Of a DNA stretch of 32,223 nt, positions 7,990 to 19,726 are shown in pieces. The position numbers and the translations under genes were made by a program. The stretch lies in the UHGV virus genome UHGV-1520234; one strand, given 5' to 3'. This DNA comes from a virus. The notes under the pieces are model-generated. The model searched no databases, had not been told where the DNA came from, and worked only from the letters and a program-made list of their open reading frames with translations. Every line of letters starts with the position of its first letter. Within the stretch, counting starts at the first letter, position 1.

Positions 7990-8640
7990 TCACCTTCCCA
8001 GAAATAAATTGCTCAGATACCCATCAACAGTGGTGACACCTTTTTGCGCTATCTGTGGCAGCGATTTCAGAATGGAATTATTCGGCGGCACCGTTGTTTT
8101 GGTGCCTGTATTCTGCACAGCAGACGTTCCGACTCCCTCGGTCATATTGTTTTTCGTGGCTACCCTGACTGACTGCGTGGAGGTAATAATTACTTCCCTG
8201 AGGGTAAGTGTCGCCAGAAGCACATTTTCACTACTCTTATCGGTCGTGACCTCCAGCGTTTTTATCAACATATTGTTGTAAATACGCTTGCCGGTTGTCA
8301 CATCGAAAGGAATACGATTCCGCTGCAGGTTAAGCAGTTCCTGATACAGTTCTTTCGGGCTCAGCCCCAGTAAACTGGTAGCCGTCAGGTTACTGGCAAA
8401 ATCAAGCAGCGATCCGCCTCCGGAAAAACCGGTTTCCATCACAACCTCAGAAGGGCGCCTGAATGCGTGTTCTGATATGTAACCAGCGCCCTCACCACTG
8501 GCGCCAGCATTCGTGGGCTGTTCAACCGGATGTTCCGTAATTTCCAGGGCGTCAGTGTGCTTTTCGGTAATAACCACATCAGGAATAATGATTCCTATTG
8601 AGCGGGTTCGCTGCTGCAGTAAAACAGATAAAAAGTCCAT
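7990..8640 (-). CDS. Hypothetical tail/baseplate protein
   Basis: 216-aa ORF whose ATG abuts the tape measure stop codon. Confidence 0.4.
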   Translation of the reverse strand: MDFLSVLLQQRTRSIGIIIPDVVITEKHTDALEITEHPVEQPTNAGASGEGAGYISEHAFRRPSEVVMETGFSGGGSLLDFASNLTATSLLGLSPKELYQELLNLQRNRIPFDVTTGKRIYNNMLIKTLEVTTDKSSENVLLATLTLREVIITSTQSVRVATKNNMTEGVGTSAVQNTGTKTTVPPNNSILKSLPQIAQKGVTTVDGYLSNLFLGR

Positions 8641-10592
8641 TACGCAGGTCCTTTCAATTGCTGTACCGCCCTGGCATTTACAGCCCCCTGCTTGTCAGCG
8701 ATCAGATTAGCCGCCTCCTGAGGGTTGTTAACTCCATGAACATTTATAACAGTCTGCTGGTTAAGGCTGCCAGCGGCGGCCTGATACGCCAGCGGGCTGT
8801 TCCAGTTTGAATAACCTTCTTTGCGCGCCATCGACTGCATCAATGCTCCCATAGTACGGGGATCTGTAAGATTCAATATTGCATTCGGTGATACTCCCAT
8901 CCATTTCGCAACATCCTGTGCATACTTTTTCGGATCGTTGTTATCACCTGCCGGGGCCCAGGTACTGACAATATCCTGAATAGTCTGTAATGCCCGTCCG
9001 GTTGTTTTCCCGGTAAAGTAACGCATGAGCTGGTTTTTCATCGCCTCCCAGCCCTCAAGAGCTGATTCGAAAAACCGGAACCCTTTACCGCTCACCGGGC
9101 GAATATTCCCTGGATTGTTATTCCGATCGGCTAAAGTACGCTTCGTAGCCTGTGCATGTTGTTCCGGCTCAGCACCTGGAATATCTGACTGAATATTTGC
9201 GCCTTTTACGGTATGAGGATTACGACCAAAATCGGTATCAATGCCAAGCCAGCGCAATGAATCTCCAATATTTTGTTTCGTGTAATCCCAGGATGACTTC
9301 GCACTGGTACCAATATTTTCGCGATCGGAGTACAAATAAGCAGCATAAGCCATCCAGCCTTTTAACCATGGCGGTACCGGCAAACCAGATATTTTCCCGA
9401 AAGCCCCCAGGACCTTGGATACCCAGACACCCGCGATGAATGTACCGAGGATTTCCAATGATTTTTGCCAGCCGCCAACACCATCTTTTAGTTCCAGAAG
9501 GTGATCACGAAGCCAGGTGATCGCATCCTTCGCTTTATCTATTGCCGGTTGCCATTTTTCCCAGTCGATAAGACTGTTACCGCCTTCTTTCCATGTTTTG
9601 TAGTCTTCCCACAAGAGACTGAGAGCCACGATCAGACCGGTAATCAGCCCTATAGGTGACATCCAGAAAGTAGAGTTAAGTATCCGCATGGCGACAACCA
9701 GACCGCCGATAACCTCTATCAGGGTTTTCGTTTCGGCATCCAGTTTTCCCCACCACTCGATGATATCTCCGACACCATCGACTATCCGAAATGCAACCCG
9801 CCCGACTATCTCACCCAGCCAGAGGATCCCCTTTATGACCTTTGTGATGGTGACTTCAATTTTGGGAAAATTTTCAATTATCTTTTTGCGCAGGTTATCA
9901 ATCTGCCCCGCCAGTCCGTCCGCAAGATTCGATCCGATTTTGTCCCGCGCCATCCCGGCCATTTCACCGAGCGATTTCAGCGAGGTCATAAACCGGTTTG
10001 ACGATAAGGCAGCCTGATCGGCATTAAATCCGATAGCTTTCGCCATTGCGCTGTACTGCCCGGAGAACCCCCCCACACCCCGGCGCATCGCCATAAGGGT
10101 ATTTTCGTCAATGCCCAGCATCTGCGCATACTGGTTAGCCCGGTAATACGGCATGCTGCTGAGCTTCTGGCCGACGCCCGTAAAGATAGCGGCCATGTCG
10201 CGCATGTTACCGCTGGCGTCACGGGTCTGTACCCCCAGACGATTCAGAAATCCCTCCGCCCCGGGATTATTACGAATAAACCGGGAGAGGTTTTCCAGAG
10301 AAGATCGCGCAGCGTCCACGCTGCCGCCAACCTGCGAAACCGCATAGCCAATAGACTGAATCCCCTGAACCGTCGCGCCGGTGCGCTGTGACGCCCAGTA
10401 GAGATTATCCAGACCGGAGGCGATCTTAGCCGTGAAGGCCACCACGGACAGCGCAGCTCCTTCAACAGCCAGCCCCATTTTGATGACATTTGCAGTTGTA
10501 CCGGCGAGGACAGAACCGAACTTTTTCGCTCCTGCATCATCCACACTGAAGCCAAGCGAGACGAGGAAATCTTTAATAGTTTCAGCGTTCAT
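8640..10592 (-). CDS. Tail tape measure protein
   Basis: Largest ORF in the tail module, with hydrophobic segments. The track start at 10613 is a TTG; the first ATG is at 10592 (MNAETIKDFL...) with GAGAGG upstream. Sits directly downstream of the chaperone frameshift window. Confidence 0.7.
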   Translation of the reverse strand: MNAETIKDFLVSLGFSVDDAGAKKFGSVLAGTTANVIKMGLAVEGAALSVVAFTAKIASGLDNLYWASQRTGATVQGIQSIGYAVSQVGGSVDAARSSLENLSRFIRNNPGAEGFLNRLGVQTRDASGNMRDMAAIFTGVGQKLSSMPYYRANQYAQMLGIDENTLMAMRRGVGGFSGQYSAMAKAIGFNADQAALSSNRFMTSLKSLGEMAGMARDKIGSNLADGLAGQIDNLRKKIIENFPKIEVTITKVIKGILWLGEIVGRVAFRIVDGVGDIIEWWGKLDAETKTLIEVIGGLVVAMRILNSTFWMSPIGLITGLIVALSLLWEDYKTWKEGGNSLIDWEKWQPAIDKAKDAITWLRDHLLELKDGVGGWQKSLEILGTFIAGVWVSKVLGAFGKISGLPVPPWLKGWMAYAAYLYSDRENIGTSAKSSWDYTKQNIGDSLRWLGIDTDFGRNPHTVKGANIQSDIPGAEPEQHAQATKRTLADRNNNPGNIRPVSGKGFRFFESALEGWEAMKNQLMRYFTGKTTGRALQTIQDIVSTWAPAGDNNDPKKYAQDVAKWMGVSPNAILNLTDPRTMGALMQSMARKEGYSNWNSPLAYQAAAGSLNQQTVINVHGVNNPQEAANLIADKQGAVNARAVQQLKGPA

Positions 10593-11222
10593 TATCCTCT
10601 CTCCATTTCTCAATGCGCCGCTGGTTATCCGCTTTTACCGCCAGATGGTCATTCAAGAGAGCAATGTCGTACAAATCGACAGAGCCATCTTTAAGTGCTG
10701 TATAAGGAATTAACCCGGCGTCAACCGGATTGAGAAGGTAAGACAGCCCGTCCGGCAGGCTGTTAAACGTCAGCCCTGTTGCAGGCTCTGCGTCGTGCTG
10801 GTAAGGGGTGTAGGCAAAAAATTTCCCAGCGAATCGGCGACCACCCGCGCCACCAGATGCAGCATGACCAGCAAGTCAATATCATCAAACATCAGTTCGC
10901 CCTGGGTAAATACCGGAACCCATCCGTCCATATGACGCCGCGATACCACCGCAAGACAGGGATGAATAATCGCACTGGTGTCATCTTCGGTCAGGGAAGA
11001 CAGTTCCTCAGCGATACGCGGGAGCATGGTTTCAAACACCGGTTTTAACTGCTCGAATTTCACGGTGTCGATTTTGCCATCAGCAGGCAAACGGGAGCGA
11101 ATGCTCCCGAAATCTGACATCATTCCTGCCAGCACCGGCAGAAGTTTGCGGGTCACTTTCAGCTGATCAAAAACGCTGAGTTTTGCCGCGCGATATTTCA
11201 CGCCTTTGATTTCGAATTCCAT
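10582..11222 (-). CDS. Predicted -1 frameshift fusion product of the tail assembly chaperone (G-T-like)
   Basis: Slippery run GGGAAATTTTTTG (minus strand, plus coordinates 10827..10815; candidate heptamers G_GGA_AAT and A_AAT_TTT) lies 18 codons before the zero-frame stop. The -1 frame is then open for 81 codons, translated by hand, and ends at the TGA at 10584..10582 just inside the tape measure start. Confidence 0.45.
10770..11222 (-). CDS. Tail assembly chaperone (zero-frame product)
   Basis: 150-aa ORF with an ATG start, between the tail tube and tape measure genes. Confidence 0.55.
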   Translation of the reverse strand: MEFEIKGVKYRAAKLSVFDQLKVTRKLLPVLAGMMSDFGSIRSRLPADGKIDTVKFEQLKPVFETMLPRIAEELSSLTEDDTSAIIHPCLAVVSRRHMDGWVPVFTQGELMFDDIDLLVMLHLVARVVADSLGNFLPTPLTSTTQSLQQG

Positions 11223-11225
11223 GTA

Positions 11226-11666
11226 TTAAAACTCCCCGAGAACCTGGTCAATCTTGCCGCAGTCAAACACCCACGGCATCTTATTACCGGTTTTAGCGTT
11301 GGCATTATCCGGTTGTTTCTGGAACGCAACACTACGTGCCGTGATGATGTCGCCGCTGACCTTGTTTCGGATCACAATAACGTTATTCCCCCATGTGGCA
11401 GAAGACTGGCTCTGTGCGTTATACGCCAGCGACAATTTTTTATTTGTCGGTGATGTCATCAGAAGGTTAACGGTAATCGTCCCGCTTTTATCTGCATGGA
11501 GACTGTGCATCACTTCGCCATCAGCACCGATGGTCATGGTGTTTTTAGGACCGCCCATCGCAACCACAATCCCCTCTTCAGAACTTGCAGAACCGTACCC
11601 GAGGTCAATCGAACCGGTCGGCCCGGTCAGCGTCGCAGTGACATCCATAAAAGAATAGGTAGACAT
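11226..11666 (-). CDS. Tail tube protein (contractile-tail type)
   Basis: 146-aa ORF with an ATG start immediately downstream of the sheath gene. Confidence 0.55.
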   Translation of the reverse strand: MSTYSFMDVTATLTGPTGSIDLGYGSASSEEGIVVAMGGPKNTMTIGADGEVMHSLHADKSGTITVNLLMTSPTNKKLSLAYNAQSQSSATWGNNVIVIRNKVSGDIITARSVAFQKQPDNANAKTGNKMPWVFDCGKIDQVLGEF

Positions 11667-11676
11667 TCACTTCCCC

Positions 11677-12822
11677 TTAGCGAACAACGTTAATCTGTAC
11701 GTCAGCGTAATGAACCGCGCCAGCCAGCTTACAGGCCACCTGGATTAACGGTGCTTTGCGCGCTTCGCGGTCGGCCTGCGCCTGTTCGGACAGCGGTTGC
11801 GCATACACGTAATAGCCTTTGGTCAGCGTATCGCCGGAATTCAGCTGTCCGATAGGGCCACCATTCCACACGCCAGTAGCTACCAGACCGTTCGTGACGG
11901 ACTGATCCATGGATTGTTCAACGTTGGAAAGCAGACGGGTCACACCGGCATCAGTCTGCGGAATTTTGGTGGTGCTGGTGTAAAGCAGGTTATAGAGGTT
12001 GGTCTGAACGTAGTTCTGCAACCAATCGAGCCCGTGGCGCTCGTCGAAGAAGTCACCGTTCGCCATGACACCCTGTTGCAGGATCGCCGTGTCGTTGGCG
12101 TAGTACACGAACACATTGCAGTTTTTTGCATCAAGTGCCGATGCCTGGCTGACTGTCAGTGTTTCATACCCGACACCCGGCTCCTGCTTAAACTTGAGCG
12201 TAATCGCGGTATTACTGCCATTGAAATTAACCGTGAATGCCCGGCCAAATGCAGATAACGCAGCGTATTTACTACCCGATGAATATTGAATAAAACTGCG
12301 TGAATATCCGGCGGTTTTCAGTTTTGATGCCAAATCATCGCTGGATGCAGTCTGCAGGCATTTCTCATCGCTTGTCGTAATCGCCAGAATACGGCTTACA
12401 GAAGAGGATTCGATCGCCGCAGCCACTTTCAGCCAGTCTGCATCCGGAATATCTTCATCGTCTGCAATCCCCAGCCCATACCATGAAGTATAATCGAGCA
12501 TGGCATTCACAGCCTGCTCCAGCGTCTCAGGCGTGGCCTGTTCGCTGTCTCCCTTCGTTTTCACCCAACGACCAACAAAAACCTCCTGAGGTTTCGGTGA
12601 TTGTGAGAAAAACACCTGCGCAGCCTTATATTCTGGTGATTCCACGCCAAAATCTTTTCCAATATCTTCCGCGGCAGAATAACGGCGAATGCGCTCACTT
12701 ACCGGAATGATTGTGGACGGGCCGAGAATGAGTAATGCACCAAAATTTCGCCCTGATGCTGCACGCGGCGACATGATCACATCAACATTAACAACGTTTG
12801 ATACAGGCAAGCCCTGTGCCAT
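11677..12822 (-). CDS. Tail sheath protein
   Basis: 381-aa ORF with an ATG start; size and position (upstream of tube, chaperone and tape measure) fit a sheath protein of a contractile tail. Confidence 0.6.
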
Positions 12823-16387: not shown

Positions 16388-17620
16388 TTATCCTTTGCGG
16401 TTAGACCAGAATTCGGCGTTTTGTTTGTTCAGGGAAGCGATGCTGGTCATGCCCATATTTTGGCGTTGTGCATCGCCCATGGTGGTACGGGTGTTTCGCC
16501 CTTTGGCAATCTCTGACACGGCATTAAACGCCATGTTGACCGATTGCTTGGGCAATTTGCGGATATCCGCATCACCGACAACCTGGCGAACCAGTGTTTT
16601 GTCAGCGGCAGCCAGCACATCACGTTTGAACGCGGTCGGTTTCACCTTACGGCTCAGATCGATACCCGGGACGATAACCTCGGCACGATAGGCAGAGTCA
16701 CCGGTAATCGTGGTTTCCTCTTCGTCGTCCTCGCCATCGCCGGTCGGATCTTTTTTGTCTTTTTCGTCAGGCTTATTGTCGTTATCGCACGTCGCATTTC
16801 CTTCCAGCTTAGCCAGCAGGGCTTTGAGCAAGGTTTTGATATCGTCCTCGCCGTCGCCGGTTGGACCTCCGCACATCTCTGGTGCTTTGTCCGGTAGCGG
16901 TTGCTGCGGGGACAGGTTGATGTTGAGATTAACGCCCTGCGGCAAATCCCCCTCATCTCCTGTAACCGATGCGGGAGCCGACTCCACCAGTTCGTTCATG
17001 GTGTCAGCGTCACCCGTTTTGATGGCCGTGCGCATGCGGGTCCACCAGCTTTTCTTTTGATTTGCCATTGTGTCTCTGTCTCCAATTGCACAACGATTTC
17101 CGGCTCTGCCTTTAGGGACAAGAGCCACATGGTTTCCGGTAATATCGACCTGCTCAGCTTTACCTAGCTCGGTCTGCTCGTACTCCGCGTCATAGCCGCA
17201 CGACACTTCGCGCAGGCCATCTTCGATAAGCTGAATGGCGTTTTCGTCTTTGACGATAAGGTCAGCCAGCATCAAATCAGACTGCTTACCCGTCCCGCGC
17301 CGGACATTCTGGAGGTGCCCGACAGCAAGCTCTTTCCAGTTCTCGGGATTTACCAGCCGCACATTCCCGTTTTCATCTTCAGGATGCAGAATCGTGATGC
17401 TCATCCCTTCGAATGAGGCAAGCGTGGCCGGATGGAATACCTGCTCAGGAGAACGCGTGACGACTATTTCACCGAACTTATCGGGTTTCAGTTTTGGCAG
17501 GTCATCAGCACCATAGAGCTGCTTACCTGTTCGTCCTATCGGCACGTCTCTGCACAGCAACGAGCCGTCAGCCAGCTGATAGCGGGTTTCCCCCAGCCGG
17601 GTATTGAAAAAATATTTCAT
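16388..17620 (-). CDS. Putative scaffold / prohead protease-like protein
   Basis: 410-aa ORF with an ATG start; contains a highly acidic region with a duplicated PTGDGEDD motif, typical of scaffolding proteins. Confidence 0.45.
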   Translation of the reverse strand: MKYFFNTRLGETRYQLADGSLLCRDVPIGRTGKQLYGADDLPKLKPDKFGEIVVTRSPEQVFHPATLASFEGMSITILHPEDENGNVRLVNPENWKELAVGHLQNVRRGTGKQSDLMLADLIVKDENAIQLIEDGLREVSCGYDAEYEQTELGKAEQVDITGNHVALVPKGRAGNRCAIGDRDTMANQKKSWWTRMRTAIKTGDADTMNELVESAPASVTGDEGDLPQGVNLNINLSPQQPLPDKAPEMCGGPTGDGEDDIKTLLKALLAKLEGNATCDNDNKPDEKDKKDPTGDGEDDEEETTITGDSAYRAEVIVPGIDLSRKVKPTAFKRDVLAAADKTLVRQVVGDADIRKLPKQSVNMAFNAVSEIAKGRNTRTTMGDAQRQNMGMTSIASLNKQNAEFWSNRKG

Positions 17621-18408: not shown

Positions 18409-19726
18409 TCTCGATATCCTCGTCGGTAATAGATGCCCCGATGCCGGTTACGTCAGAATTTTCGCGCAAATCAGTCATAGCGGCTTTCAGTGTCATCAGA
18501 CCATCACCCAGCGCCGTACTGATTGCGTTGGTAGTGTTTAACGCCACCGTTGAGCGATCGACATCAGACATTTGCCAGAGCGGGTTAAACTCAAACGTGA
18601 AATCGTCCGGCAGCGGCTTGCCAAGCTCCGAACGATGCATGATGTCCAGTATCCGCCGCACCGGAAGACGTAAACGCCTCTCCTGTAACGAGCTTACCCG
18701 GTCGTAATAGTTGGCAAGGTCTGCATCGCCGGTAGAAAATCCTTTCGGGGACTGTCCGAACAACCGCACCAGTGGGATACCAACAGCGCCACTAATCTGC
18801 TCAGCGAACTGCGAAAGGATGTCATCCAGACCACTGAAGCTGTACTGATGGGTTTCAAACTTATCCCGCGAGTCCATGAGCGTCATGCCTTCATTGCTCT
18901 GGAACTGTCGAATCAGGTCGATATTCTTCAGCAACGCTTCATACGCAGGACCACCAAGTGCGATAAGCTCGCGTAGCTTCTCCACGCTGTAGGTACGCAA
19001 ATGCGCCTTGTAGACCAGCTGCGCCGCGCCGACAGTAGCGCTGTCGAACGCGGTAAGACGATCCCAGATACGCTCTACAACCGACATTCCCCATTCGTTC
19101 TCGGTCATCTTCTGCTGGAATGGCAGCGTGACGCCATCAAAGCGAATCAGACGACTGTGATGAATGCGCCAGGCAGGAATTCCCGTTGCTGTGGTCACCA
19201 CATCGTAAAACTCAGGTTTACCCAGGTCCGGCCCCATATCTTTAATGCGGCGGGTCAGCACTGGGTTAATCATCCAGCGGTCGAGCGGGAGAATGCCCTT
19301 AAACTTGCCTTCTCCAATGGTTTCGGGTCGCAGCGGGGTCATTGGTGCCTGCCCCTCAATCATGATGAAACCCACCGCGCCGCCGTAGAGACGCGACCAT
19401 TTCAGCACGTCGTTCAGCGCATCCCAGATTTGCAACTCATCCAGTTGTGATTCGAGAATGCCGCGATCTTTTGCATCAATTTCCGAAGTGATGCGAATGC
19501 CTTTGCGGGTCATATCATCCGGGATAGCATCGACCGCTTCGCCGATGATCCAGGACGAACGATAGGACCATTCCACCAGCATGCGGTTGCGACTGGTGAA
19601 GTTAGCCCGGTAGGTCGATGCTGAGTGCTGGTTAGGCGTCTGCATTCCCACGCGGGCGACAAAGTTCTCATAGCCATCAGCGGTGGCCTGCGCAGTTCTC
19701 CGCAGGGCTTGTTTGTTTCGTGCCAT
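18260..19726 (-). CDS. Portal protein
   Basis: 488-aa ORF immediately downstream of the large terminase (ATGA overlap), with an acidic C-terminal tail. Confidence 0.7.
   Translation of the reverse strand: MARNKQALRRTAQATADGYENFVARVGMQTPNQHSASTYRANFTSRNRMLVEWSYRSSWIIGEAVDAIPDDMTRKGIRITSEIDAKDRGILESQLDELQIWDALNDVLKWSRLYGGAVGFIMIEGQAPMTPLRPETIGEGKFKGILPLDRWMINPVLTRRIKDMGPDLGKPEFYDVVTTATGIPAWRIHHSRLIRFDGVTLPFQQKMTENEWGMSVVERIWDRLTAFDSATVGAAQLVYKAHLRTYSVEKLRELIALGGPAYEALLKNIDLIRQFQSNEGMTLMDSRDKFETHQYSFSGLDDILSQFAEQISGAVGIPLVRLFGQSPKGFSTGDADLANYYDRVSSLQERRLRLPVRRILDIMHRSELGKPLPDDFTFEFNPLWQMSDVDRSTVALNTTNAISTALGDGLMTLKAAMTDLRENSDVTGIGASITDEDIENAEDEAPPGIGELDDKPPEPPGGDPISNEPTADSAGGRRHRKWSLRWFK

What the first reader, a model, noticed from the sequence alone, without database searches (positions are those of the whole stretch)
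10582..10830. Predicted programmed -1 ribosomal frameshift in the tail assembly chaperone upstream of the tape measure gene
The chaperone ORF ends at 10770, leaving a 150-nt gap before the tape measure gene. Eighteen codons before its stop is the run GGGAAATTTTTTG (minus strand, 10827..10815), containing heptamers G_GGA_AAT and A_AAT_TTT. From there the -1 frame is open for 81 codons (hand translated, no stops) and ends just inside the tape measure start. This is the arrangement of the lambda G/GT-type chaperone frameshift, a conserved feature of tailed-phage tail operons.
Basis: partly seen in the sequence, partly recalled or inferred. Interest (0 to 1): 0.5.

Follow-up and report, generated by a model that had tools for sequence, protein, structure and literature searches.

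The report
Tail chaperone -1 frameshift, known type
This E. coli prophage almost certainly makes a longer version of its tail-assembly chaperone by letting ribosomes slip back one base on a run of T's, a standard trick of tailed phages that is already annotated in a related Klebsiella phage, so the finding is correct but ordinary.

Summary
On the minus strand the chaperone gene (11222..10770, Pfam Phage_TAC_15) contains CTG GGA AAT TTT TTG at 10829..10815. The -1 frame is open from there to a TGA at 10584..10582, 11 nt inside the tape measure gene (ATG 10592).

The -1 extension is a real conserved domain (Pfam DUF6889, E 9e-20) and has no usable start codon. GGA, AAT, TTT and TTG are fixed at synonymous sites, and the -1 frame stays open for 76-82 codons.

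Relatives at 27-41% identity in Burkholderia, Bordetella, Acinetobacter, Ralstonia and Providencia phages keep DUF6889 in the -1 frame but use other heptamers at the same spot. That favours ribosomal over transcriptional slippage. I found no stimulatory RNA structure.

Phage P2 E/E+E' uses the same heptamer and layout but shows no sequence homology. GenBank already annotates this frameshift in homologous phages Mulock and Magia. RefSeq annotates the window's type as a separate CTG-start "DUF6889 family protein".

No experiment supports frameshifting in this family. Verdict: an ordinary instance of a known kind, of use mainly for correcting annotation.

The parts
10770..11222 (-). Tail assembly chaperone gene in the zero frame (the short form, TAC-N), 150 aa; stop TGA at 10772..10770
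   Evidence: Translation. Pfam Phage_TAC_15 PF21822 E 2e-30 and phrog_1688 'tail assembly chaperone' E 3e-61. RefSeq names it 'phage tail assembly chaperone' in a 99.7% identical genome.
10815..10827 (-). Slippery run GGGAAATTTTTTG, holding three overlapping in-frame heptamers: G_GGA_AAT (10827..10821), A_AAT_TTT (10824..10818) and T_TTT_TTG (10821..10815)
   Evidence: Register shown. T_TTT_TTG or a T_TTT_TTN variant is present in 160 of 162 related loci; one of the other two was a regex mis-hit whose true site is T_TTT_TTT. Codon choice at the site against the rest of the same genes: GGA 38/39 vs 8%, AAT 38/38 vs 35%, TTT 38/38 vs 53%, TTG 34/35 vs 11%.
10582..10815 (-). The -1 frame extension, 77 codons after the shift plus the TGA at 10584..10582. 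The predicted long-form coding sequence is join(11222..10815, 10815..10582) on the minus strand, 213 aa.
   Evidence: Translation. 81 distinct homologous peptides down to 38% identity, of constant length. Column entropy by codon position is 0.80/0.64/1.44 in the -1 frame downstream of the zero-frame stop.
10591..10707 (-). DUF6889 domain (residues 173-211 of the 213-aa fusion), the presumed equivalent of the lambda T or P2 E' domain
   Evidence: Pfam PF21829 E 8.9e-20, 70.6 bits against a cutoff of 23.9; phrog_4364 E 1.4e-22. The -1 peptides of seven distant phages hit the same family.
8640..10592 (-). Tape measure protein gene, ATG 10592..10590, preceded by the Shine-Dalgarno-like GGAGAGAGG at 10604..10596 that lies inside the end of the -1 ORF
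   Evidence: phrog_2276 'tail length tape measure protein' E 4e-252. RefSeq start. Sequence.
11226..11666 (-). Tail tube gene directly upstream (context)
   Evidence: Pfam KPP10_Orf10 PF11681 E 1e-59, labelled Phage_Tube_PhiTE.
11677..12822 (-). Tail sheath gene (context; shows the phage is a myovirus)
   Evidence: Pfam DUF3383 E 6e-101, which is PF11863, labelled E217_gp31_N; phrog_205 'tail sheath' E 9e-134.

Best explanation
This is a programmed -1 ribosomal frameshift in the tail assembly chaperone gene of a SEN34-like (Brunovirus) myovirus prophage of E. coli.

Most ribosomes read the zero frame to the TGA at 10770 and make the 150-aa chaperone. A minority slip back one base on the run A_AAT_TTT_TTG (10824..10815, core heptamer T_TTT_TTG), with the P- and A-site tRNAs re-pairing in the -1 frame. 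They then translate 77 more codons and terminate 11 nt inside the tape measure gene. The result is a 213-aa long form whose C-terminus is the DUF6889 domain.

By analogy with lambda gpG/gpGT and P2 gpE/gpE+E', both forms would coat the tape measure protein through the shared N-terminal part. The rare DUF6889 end would recruit tube subunits, and neither form would end up in the virion.

Shown here: the two reading frames, the signal, its conservation, the coding nature of the -1 frame and the lack of a start codon. Inferred: that slippage actually occurs, its efficiency (probably a few percent, since no stimulator was found), and the assembly role.
For: 1. Anatomy. The heptamers are in the zero-frame register. 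The -1 frame is open for 77 codons after T_TTT_TTG and ends inside the tape measure start.
2. The -1 product is a bona fide family: DUF6889 E 9e-20 and phrog_4364 E 1e-22.
3. No independent initiation. The only canonical -1 frame start in the window is TTG 10674, which leaves 30 aa and cuts the domain. 18 of 39 non-redundant alleles have no ATG/GTG/TTG anywhere between the upstream -1 stop and the domain. RefSeq has to invoke a CTG start. The first about 26 codons after the slip site are also conserved as protein.
4. Conservation of the signal. 162 loci give T_TTT_TTG 154, T_TTT_TTT 4 (5 with the corrected L068), TTA 1 and TTC 1. The six T's are invariant in 38 diverse alleles. Rare codons GGA, AAT and TTG are fixed only at this site.
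5. Distant homologs at 27-41% identity keep DUF6889 in the -1 frame, ending at the tape measure start. At the homologous LG-x-F site they carry different canonical heptamers: C_CCT_TTT, G_GGA_AAT, A_AAT_TTT, G_GGT_TTT/T_TTT_TTC and T_TTT_TTT.
6. P2's annotated frameshift uses the identical GGT TTT TTG, with E' ending 8 nt inside gene T.
7. Homologs Mulock (59% identity, same site) and Magia are deposited with joined frameshift CDSs.
8. UUN and AAN codons are the more frameshift-prone A-site codons in E. coli (PMC4066793). The lambda G/GT role is described in PMC5009743.
Against: - There is no experimental evidence for this family. The Mulock and Magia annotations are themselves predictions.
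- No stimulatory element was found. Downstream folding is not better than shuffles (z -0.84 and -0.42). The RNAalifold consensus is -0.64 kcal/mol with essentially no covariation. Rfam gave no hit.
- UUG is a 'heterogeneous' and therefore weaker A-site codon by the rules in PMC4066793, so efficiency may be low.
- One distant phage, Edwardsiella ZHS, has no heptamer and an ATG-initiated DUF6889 ORF. The domain can therefore perhaps be made on its own in some lineages.
- The structure model of the fusion was too poor (pLDDT 49) to support any statement about fold or binding.
Confidence: 0.88

Rival explanations
1. Transcriptional slippage. RNA polymerase occasionally adds one U while copying the T6 run, giving an mRNA with U7 in which the chaperone and DUF6889 are in frame. 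The protein would be identical to one of the two frameshift products (GNFF-AYTP).
For: A homopolymer of 6-7 T is conserved. A DNA variant with T7 encodes exactly the fused 213-aa protein. Protein data alone could not tell the two mechanisms apart.
Against: T6 is short compared with the runs of about 8-9 or more that give appreciable slippage by bacterial RNA polymerase (my own knowledge of the literature, not tested here). Distant homologs keep the same arrangement with only T4 or A3 runs embedded in canonical heptamers, namely C_CCT_TTT, G_GGA_AAT and A_AAT_TTT. Those fit tRNA re-pairing but not polymerase stuttering. The synonymous constraint extends to GGA and AAT, outside the T run.
Confidence: 0.07
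2. Independent gene. DUF6889 is translated on its own as a small protein of about 54 aa from a non-canonical start (CTG 10746), as RefSeq annotates it, with no recoding.
For: PGAP annotates a 54-aa 'DUF6889 family protein'. Some alleles have an ATG at codon 27-28 of the extension, a few with a Shine-Dalgarno-like motif. Edwardsiella phage ZHS has an ATG-initiated ORF and no heptamer.
Against: The window and 17 other non-redundant alleles have no ATG/GTG/TTG before the domain. Called lengths vary from 43 to 78 aa, and only 28 protein clusters exist against more than 684 for the chaperone, which shows that gene callers find no consistent start. The 26 codons upstream of the annotated start are conserved as protein in the -1 frame. 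This model also leaves the synonymous-site conservation of the slippery run unexplained.
Confidence: 0.04
3. No function. The open -1 frame and the heptamers are coincidental, and the 177-nt spacer is non-coding.
For: In-frame heptamers followed by long -1 frames occur elsewhere in the window for trivial reasons.
Against: The Pfam and PHROG domain matches; the third-position excess of variation in the -1 frame; and the open frame kept in 81 distinct alleles and across bacterial orders.
Confidence: 0.01

Closest known systems
Phage P2 gpE / gpE+E' -1 frameshift (annotated in NC_001895)
   Same: Both are contractile-tail phages. The chaperone gene lies between the tube gene and the tape measure gene. 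The slippery heptamer T_TTT_TTG is identical (P2: GGT TTT TTG at record position about 19678-19684). A short zero-frame tail follows the site. The -1 extension ends a few nucleotides inside the tape measure gene, 8 nt in P2 and 11 nt here.
   Different: No detectable sequence homology. hhalign probability is below 1% for both the N part and the extension. P2 belongs to Pfam PF10109 + PF06528, the window to PF21822 + PF21829. The window's proteins are larger (150/213 aa against 91/142 aa), and its run carries two further overlapping heptamers.
Phage lambda gpG / gpGT
   Same: A -1 shift near the end of the chaperone gene upstream of the tape measure gene, giving a minor long form at a reported ratio of about 30:1. 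The G part binds the tape measure and the T part binds the major tail protein; neither is in the virion (PMC5009743). Neither case needs a stimulatory structure; that is from my own knowledge for lambda, and none was found here.
   Different: Lambda is a siphovirus. Its heptamer is G_GGA_AAG (my own knowledge). The Pfam scan of the window's fusion protein returned no lambda-type family. The window's G_GGA_AAT copy is not constrained at its first base in close relatives.
Klebsiella phage Mulock CPT_Mulock_014/015 and Burkholderia phage Magia CPT_Magia_015/016 (GenBank joined CDS 'tape measure chaperone frameshift product')
   Same: These are true homologs: 59% (Mulock) and 41% (Magia, C-terminal half) identity to the window's chaperone. 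The gene order is the same and DUF6889 is in the -1 frame. Mulock has the identical GGA AAT TTT TTG.
   Different: Magia uses C_CCT_TTT at the homologous site. Both annotations are predictions. The window's own lineage (E. coli prophages, SEN34, YP3, vB_EcoM-606R2) carries no such annotation.
Pakpunavirus and Andersonviridae chaperone frameshift proposed for Pseudomonas phage Adele (PMC12846349)
   Same: A related tail module: the window's tube protein falls in the Pfam family named after Pseudomonas phage KPP10. The downstream piece is likewise routinely mis-annotated as a separate hypothetical gene. The -1 frame is conserved and open, and there is a conserved poly-T motif (GTTTTT) at the end of the short-form gene.
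   Different: I did not test homology between the Adele chaperone and the window's. The motif there is shorter (T5).

Membership tests
Tailed-phage tail assembly chaperone -1 programmed frameshift (lambda G/GT and P2 E/E+E' type) | Two overlapping ORFs located between the major tail (tube) gene and the tape measure gene | tested here: met
   The minus-strand order is sheath, tube, chaperone, -1 ORF, tape measure.
Tailed-phage tail assembly chaperone -1 programmed frameshift (lambda G/GT and P2 E/E+E' type) | [quoted passage not shown] | tested here: met
   G_GGA_AAT, A_AAT_TTT and T_TTT_TTG at 10827..10815, 14-16 codons before the stop.
Tailed-phage tail assembly chaperone -1 programmed frameshift (lambda G/GT and P2 E/E+E' type) | The downstream -1 ORF lacks its own translation start | tested here: met
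   No ATG/GTG/TTG before the domain in the window or in 18 of 39 alleles; RefSeq needs a CTG.
Tailed-phage tail assembly chaperone -1 programmed frameshift (lambda G/GT and P2 E/E+E' type) | The signal and the open -1 frame are conserved among homologs, with reduced synonymous variation at the site | tested here: met
Tailed-phage tail assembly chaperone -1 programmed frameshift (lambda G/GT and P2 E/E+E' type) | A fusion protein is actually made at a low fixed ratio and is required for tail assembly | not testable with these tools
   Needs mass spectrometry, a reporter assay and genetics.
Pfam Phage_TAC_15 (PF21822) + DUF6889 (PF21829) | HMM scores above the curated gathering thresholds | tested here: met
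   106.3 bits against 22 and 70.6 bits against 23.9.
P2 gpE / gpE' sequence families (PF10109 Phage_TAC_7, PF06528 Phage_P2_GpE) | Detectable sequence homology to P2 gpE and E' | tested here: not met
   Neither family appears in the Pfam scan at E <= 0.01. hhalign probabilities are 0.9% and 0.5%.
Transcriptional slippage recoding sites | A long A/T homopolymer as the only conserved requirement, independent of codon register | tested here: not met
   The run is T6 here and only T4 or A3 in distant homologs that keep the arrangement. Conserved canonical heptamers are always in register.
-1 frameshift sites with an RNA stimulator (IS3/IS911 or dnaX type) | A downstream hairpin or pseudoknot, or an upstream Shine-Dalgarno-like element, that is conserved | tested here: not met
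   Fold z-scores -0.84 and -0.42; consensus structure -0.64 kcal/mol; no Rfam hit. An upstream Shine-Dalgarno-like element was checked only by eye in the alignment, and none was obvious.

The most novel reading that the evidence does not exclude
The 13-nt run is not one slip site but three overlapping ones, and each is the sole heptamer in some lineage: G_GGA_AAT in a Bordetella phage, A_AAT_TTT in Acinetobacter phages, and T_TTT_TTG in Erwinia/Kalamiella-type alleles. The enterobacterial phages may therefore sum slippage over consecutive codons to reach the needed long-to-short ratio without any RNA stimulator. That would give a mixture of GNFF-A and GNFL-A junctions. Separately, DUF6889 would be the missing 'T domain' for a large clade of DUF3383-sheath myoviruses, and RefSeq mis-annotates it as a stand-alone gene in hundreds of genomes.
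Probability: 0.3. Interest if true: 0.3.

Novelty: already known. Interest (0 to 1): 0.15.

Why it matters
The value is mostly in curation. In this prophage lineage, present in 316 of 5,426 complete E. coli genomes, and in SEN34-like phages, the long chaperone form is not annotated. RefSeq instead lists a 54-aa CTG-start "DUF6889 family protein", formerly named "NTP pyrophosphohydrolase".

Recognising DUF6889 as the -1 frame C-terminal domain of Phage_TAC_15 chaperones gives that domain of unknown function a likely role in tail assembly. It would also let annotation pipelines join the two coding sequences. It adds nothing new to the biology of frameshifting or of tail assembly.

Tried and rejected
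1. Downstream stimulatory RNA. Single-sequence folds of 60 and 100 nt after the heptamer were no better than shuffles. RNAalifold on 38 diverse alleles gave no structure. Rfam gave nothing.
2. Homology to P2 gpE and E' by profile comparison: none.
3. Solved structures by sequence: no hit at E <= 1.
4. AlphaFold2 of the 213-aa fusion with a 43-row alignment: mean pLDDT 49 and pTM 0.28, too poor for a fold search, so I ran none.
5. Literature. No paper mentions DUF6889. The SEN34 paper says nothing about a frameshift or a chaperone. The P2 frameshift paper and the T4-like chaperone paper are not in the library, so I read P2's site from its GenBank record instead. The Mulock genome note was not found.
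6. Whether heptamer plus open -1 frame is significant on its own: it is not. The window has several trivial cases, including an A_AAA_AAG at 16756 that lies in a spurious ORF nested inside the real 410-aa gene 17620..16388.
7. My first fusion model (GNFF-AYTP) assumed the shift leaves Phe at the junction. Tandem slippage on T_TTT_TTG would instead leave Leu (GNFL-AYTP). The domain results do not depend on this residue.
Full report
**What the window is.** The 1.4 kb around the finding is 99.7% identical to prophage DNA in E. coli chromosomes and occurs in 316 of 5,426 complete E. coli genomes. It is 97.8% identical to induced coliphages such as vB_EcoM-606R2, 84% to Yersinia phage YP3 and 76% to Salmonella phage SEN34, genus Brunovirus. 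The minus strand carries a myovirus tail operon:

| Gene | Coordinates | Evidence |
|---|---|---|
| Sheath | 12822..11677 | DUF3383, phrog_205 |
| Tube | 11666..11226 | KPP10_Orf10 family |
| Tail assembly chaperone | 11222..10770 | Phage_TAC_15, E 2e-30; phrog_1688 |
| Tape measure protein | 10592..8640 | phrog_2276, E 4e-252 |

**Checking the observation.** All the coordinates hold. The zero-frame codons are CTG GGA AAT TTT TTG at 10829..10815, and the chaperone stops at TGA 10772..10770. The -1 frame from GGG (10827) runs 81 codons to TGA 10584..10582, 11 nt inside the tape measure gene. The spacer is 177 nt rather than 150.

A control showed that an in-frame heptamer followed by a long -1 frame is not rare in this compact genome. 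The window has 54 in-frame heptamers, and several lead into the next gene or sit in nested spurious ORFs. The case therefore rests on other evidence.

**The -1 frame encodes a real protein domain with no start of its own.**
- The predicted extension matches Pfam DUF6889 (E 8.9e-20, 70.6 bits against a cutoff of 23.9) and phrog_4364.
- The only canonical start codon in that frame is TTG 10674, which would give 30 aa and cut the domain.
- RefSeq annotates a 54-aa "DUF6889 family protein" beginning at a CTG. The SEN34 and YP3 records leave the spacer empty.
- In a 5.8-billion-protein collection the chaperone has more than 684 relatives. DUF6889 was called in only 28 clusters, with lengths from 43 to 78 aa and often the stray name "NTP pyrophosphohydrolase". 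This is what one expects when gene callers find no consistent start.

**Comparative evidence from close relatives.** I collected 162 related loci from genomes and viral contigs.

| In-frame heptamer at the homologous site | Loci (of 162) |
|---|---|
| T_TTT_TTG | 154 |
| T_TTT_TTT | 4 (5 counting L068, see note) |
| T_TTT_TTA | 1 |
| T_TTT_TTC | 1 |
| T_ATT_TTG (L021, point mutation) | 1 |

L068 appeared as a regex mis-hit. Searches show its true site is T_TTT_TTT.

- The -1 frame is open for 76-82 codons in all but two decayed copies (L035, L055) and three cut by contig ends.
- There are 81 distinct extension peptides, down to 38% identity.
- In 39 non-redundant alleles, codon choice at the site is extreme compared with the rest of the same genes:

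| Codon | At the site | Elsewhere in the same genes |
|---|---|---|
| GGA (Gly) | 38/39 | 8% |
| AAT (Asn) | 38/38 | 35% |
| TTT (Phe) | 38/38 | 53% |
| TTG (Leu) | 34/35 | 11% |

- The base before GGA is free (CTC, CTT and CTA all occur), so G_GGA_AAT is not constrained in this clade. Alleles in which Asn is replaced (GGC GGT TTT TTG, GGC AGT TTT TTG, GGT GAT TTT TTG) keep only T_TTT_TTG.
- Downstream of the zero-frame stop, column entropy by -1 frame codon position is 0.80/0.64/1.44, the signature of protein coding.
- 18 of the 39 alleles have no ATG, GTG or TTG anywhere before the domain. Where an ATG occurs it is a Leu/Met variable position. The 26 codons before it are conserved as protein.

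**Comparative evidence from distant relatives.** A tblastn search of isolated phages found 40 records. Two already carry a joined CDS annotated "tape measure chaperone frameshift product". One is Klebsiella phage Mulock, 59% identical, with the same GGA AAT TTT TTG. The other is Burkholderia phage Magia.

In phages of Burkholderia, Bordetella, Acinetobacter, Ralstonia and Providencia (27-41% identity), DUF6889 is always in the -1 frame and ends at the tape measure start. All seven -1 peptides I tested pass the Pfam threshold. The homologous LG-x-F site carries different canonical heptamers:

| Phage | Heptamer at the homologous site |
|---|---|
| Burkholderia Magia, BgManors32 | C_CCT_TTT |
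| Bordetella IFTN9 | G_GGA_AAT only |
| Acinetobacter (both phages) | A_AAT_TTT (A785.1 also has G_GGA_AAT) |
| Ralstonia PY059YO380 | G_GGT_TTT / T_TTT_TTC |
| Providencia PSTCR3 | T_TTT_TTT |

Each of the window's three heptamers is therefore the sole signal somewhere in the family. Two phages have only a T_TTT tetramer. One of them, Edwardsiella ZHS, has an ATG-initiated DUF6889 ORF.

**Mechanism.** The best reading is classical tandem -1 slippage of the P- and A-site tRNAs on A_AAT_TTT_TTG.
- I found no stimulator. Folds downstream are no better than shuffles, the alignment has no consensus structure, and Rfam is silent.
- Systematic work in E. coli shows that UUN and AAN A-site codons are the more shift-prone, and that many heptamers shift measurably without stimulators (PMC4066793). 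A low yield would suit a chaperone whose long form is needed in small amounts: lambda's reported ratio is about 30:1 (PMC5009743).
- Transcriptional slippage on T6 would give the same protein. It is disfavoured because distant homologs keep the arrangement with only T4 or A3 runs set in canonical heptamers, and because the synonymous constraint extends beyond the T run.
- The junction residue would discriminate. Leu (GNFL-AYTP) can arise only from tandem slippage on T_TTT_TTG. Phe (GNFF-AYTP) is expected from the other routes.

**Comparison with known systems.** Phage P2's annotated E/E+E' frameshift lies at GGT TTT TTG, the same heptamer, and E' ends 8 nt inside gene T. The window thus works like P2, and like lambda G/GT in its logic. 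It is not a sequence relative of P2: hhalign probabilities are below 1% and the Pfam families differ. A 2025 paper makes the same argument for the related Pakpunavirus tail module, including the routine mis-annotation of the downstream piece as a separate gene (PMC12846349).

**Verdict.** The kind of feature is textbook, and this very gene family already has the frameshift annotated in GenBank, although only as a prediction. The remaining value is in annotation: DUF6889 should be read as the -1 frame C-terminal domain of Phage_TAC_15 chaperones. I estimate about 0.88 confidence that a ribosomal -1 frameshift operates here. Interest is low.

Noticed in passing
window 10582..10746 (-); L001 2455..2619: RefSeq/PGAP annotates the end of the -1 ORF as a stand-alone 54-aa 'DUF6889 family protein' starting at a CTG codon. 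Older records name the same peptide 'NTP pyrophosphohydrolase', which looks like a propagated misnomer.
   Followed up: yes
L164 1895..1910 (Logan assembly SRR23924998): One assembly has T7 instead of T6 in the slippery run. This puts the chaperone and DUF6889 in one 213-aa ORF (P0001, junction GNFFAYTP). It could be a real 'fusion-only' mutant or a homopolymer sequencing error; I did not resolve which.
   Followed up: partly
L021 (Salmonella enterica s1), L035 (Enterobacter sp. R1), L055 (Izhakiella australiensis): Three prophage copies break the pattern. L021 has T_ATT_TTG, a point change in the heptamer. L035 has a -1 frame stop after 37 codons. L055 has a deletion that runs the -1 ORF into the tape measure gene (256 codons). 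They look like decaying prophages.
   Followed up: partly
window 10596..10604 (-): The Shine-Dalgarno-like GGAGAGAGG for the tape measure gene lies inside the last codons of the -1 ORF (…EKWREDNER). The conserved W-R-E-x-N-E-R ending may therefore be under a double constraint, from the protein and from the ribosome binding site.
   Followed up: no
window 8640..10592 (-): RefSeq names the tape measure protein 'lytic transglycosylase', and its residues 407-649 match phrog_873 ('endolysin'). It thus seems to carry a C-terminal cell-wall-degrading region. Pfam's PhageMin_Tail hit is below the gathering score (25.2 against 33.2 bits).
   Followed up: no
L169 1165..1374 (Edwardsiella phage vB_EpM_ZHS): In this 71-kb phage the DUF6889 homolog (E 7e-9) is still in the -1 frame relative to the chaperone. 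It has its own ATG, and the homologous site (GGG GAT TTT ATG) has no heptamer, only a T_TTT tetramer. This may be a lineage where the domain is made separately.
   Followed up: partly
window 10773..10814 (-): The zero-frame tail after the slip site has nearly constant length (14 codons in most of the distinct alleles listed). Its sequence is variable and rich in Pro, Thr, Ser and Gln, while the same nucleotides encode a better conserved -1 peptide (consensus ARTPRQRD).
   Followed up: partly
window 16756 (-): An in-frame A_AAA_AAG heptamer with a 120-codon -1 frame turned up in the control scan. The 100-aa ORF that holds it (16956..16654) is a spurious ORF nested inside the real 410-aa gene 17620..16388, so it is not a recoding candidate.
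   Followed up: yes
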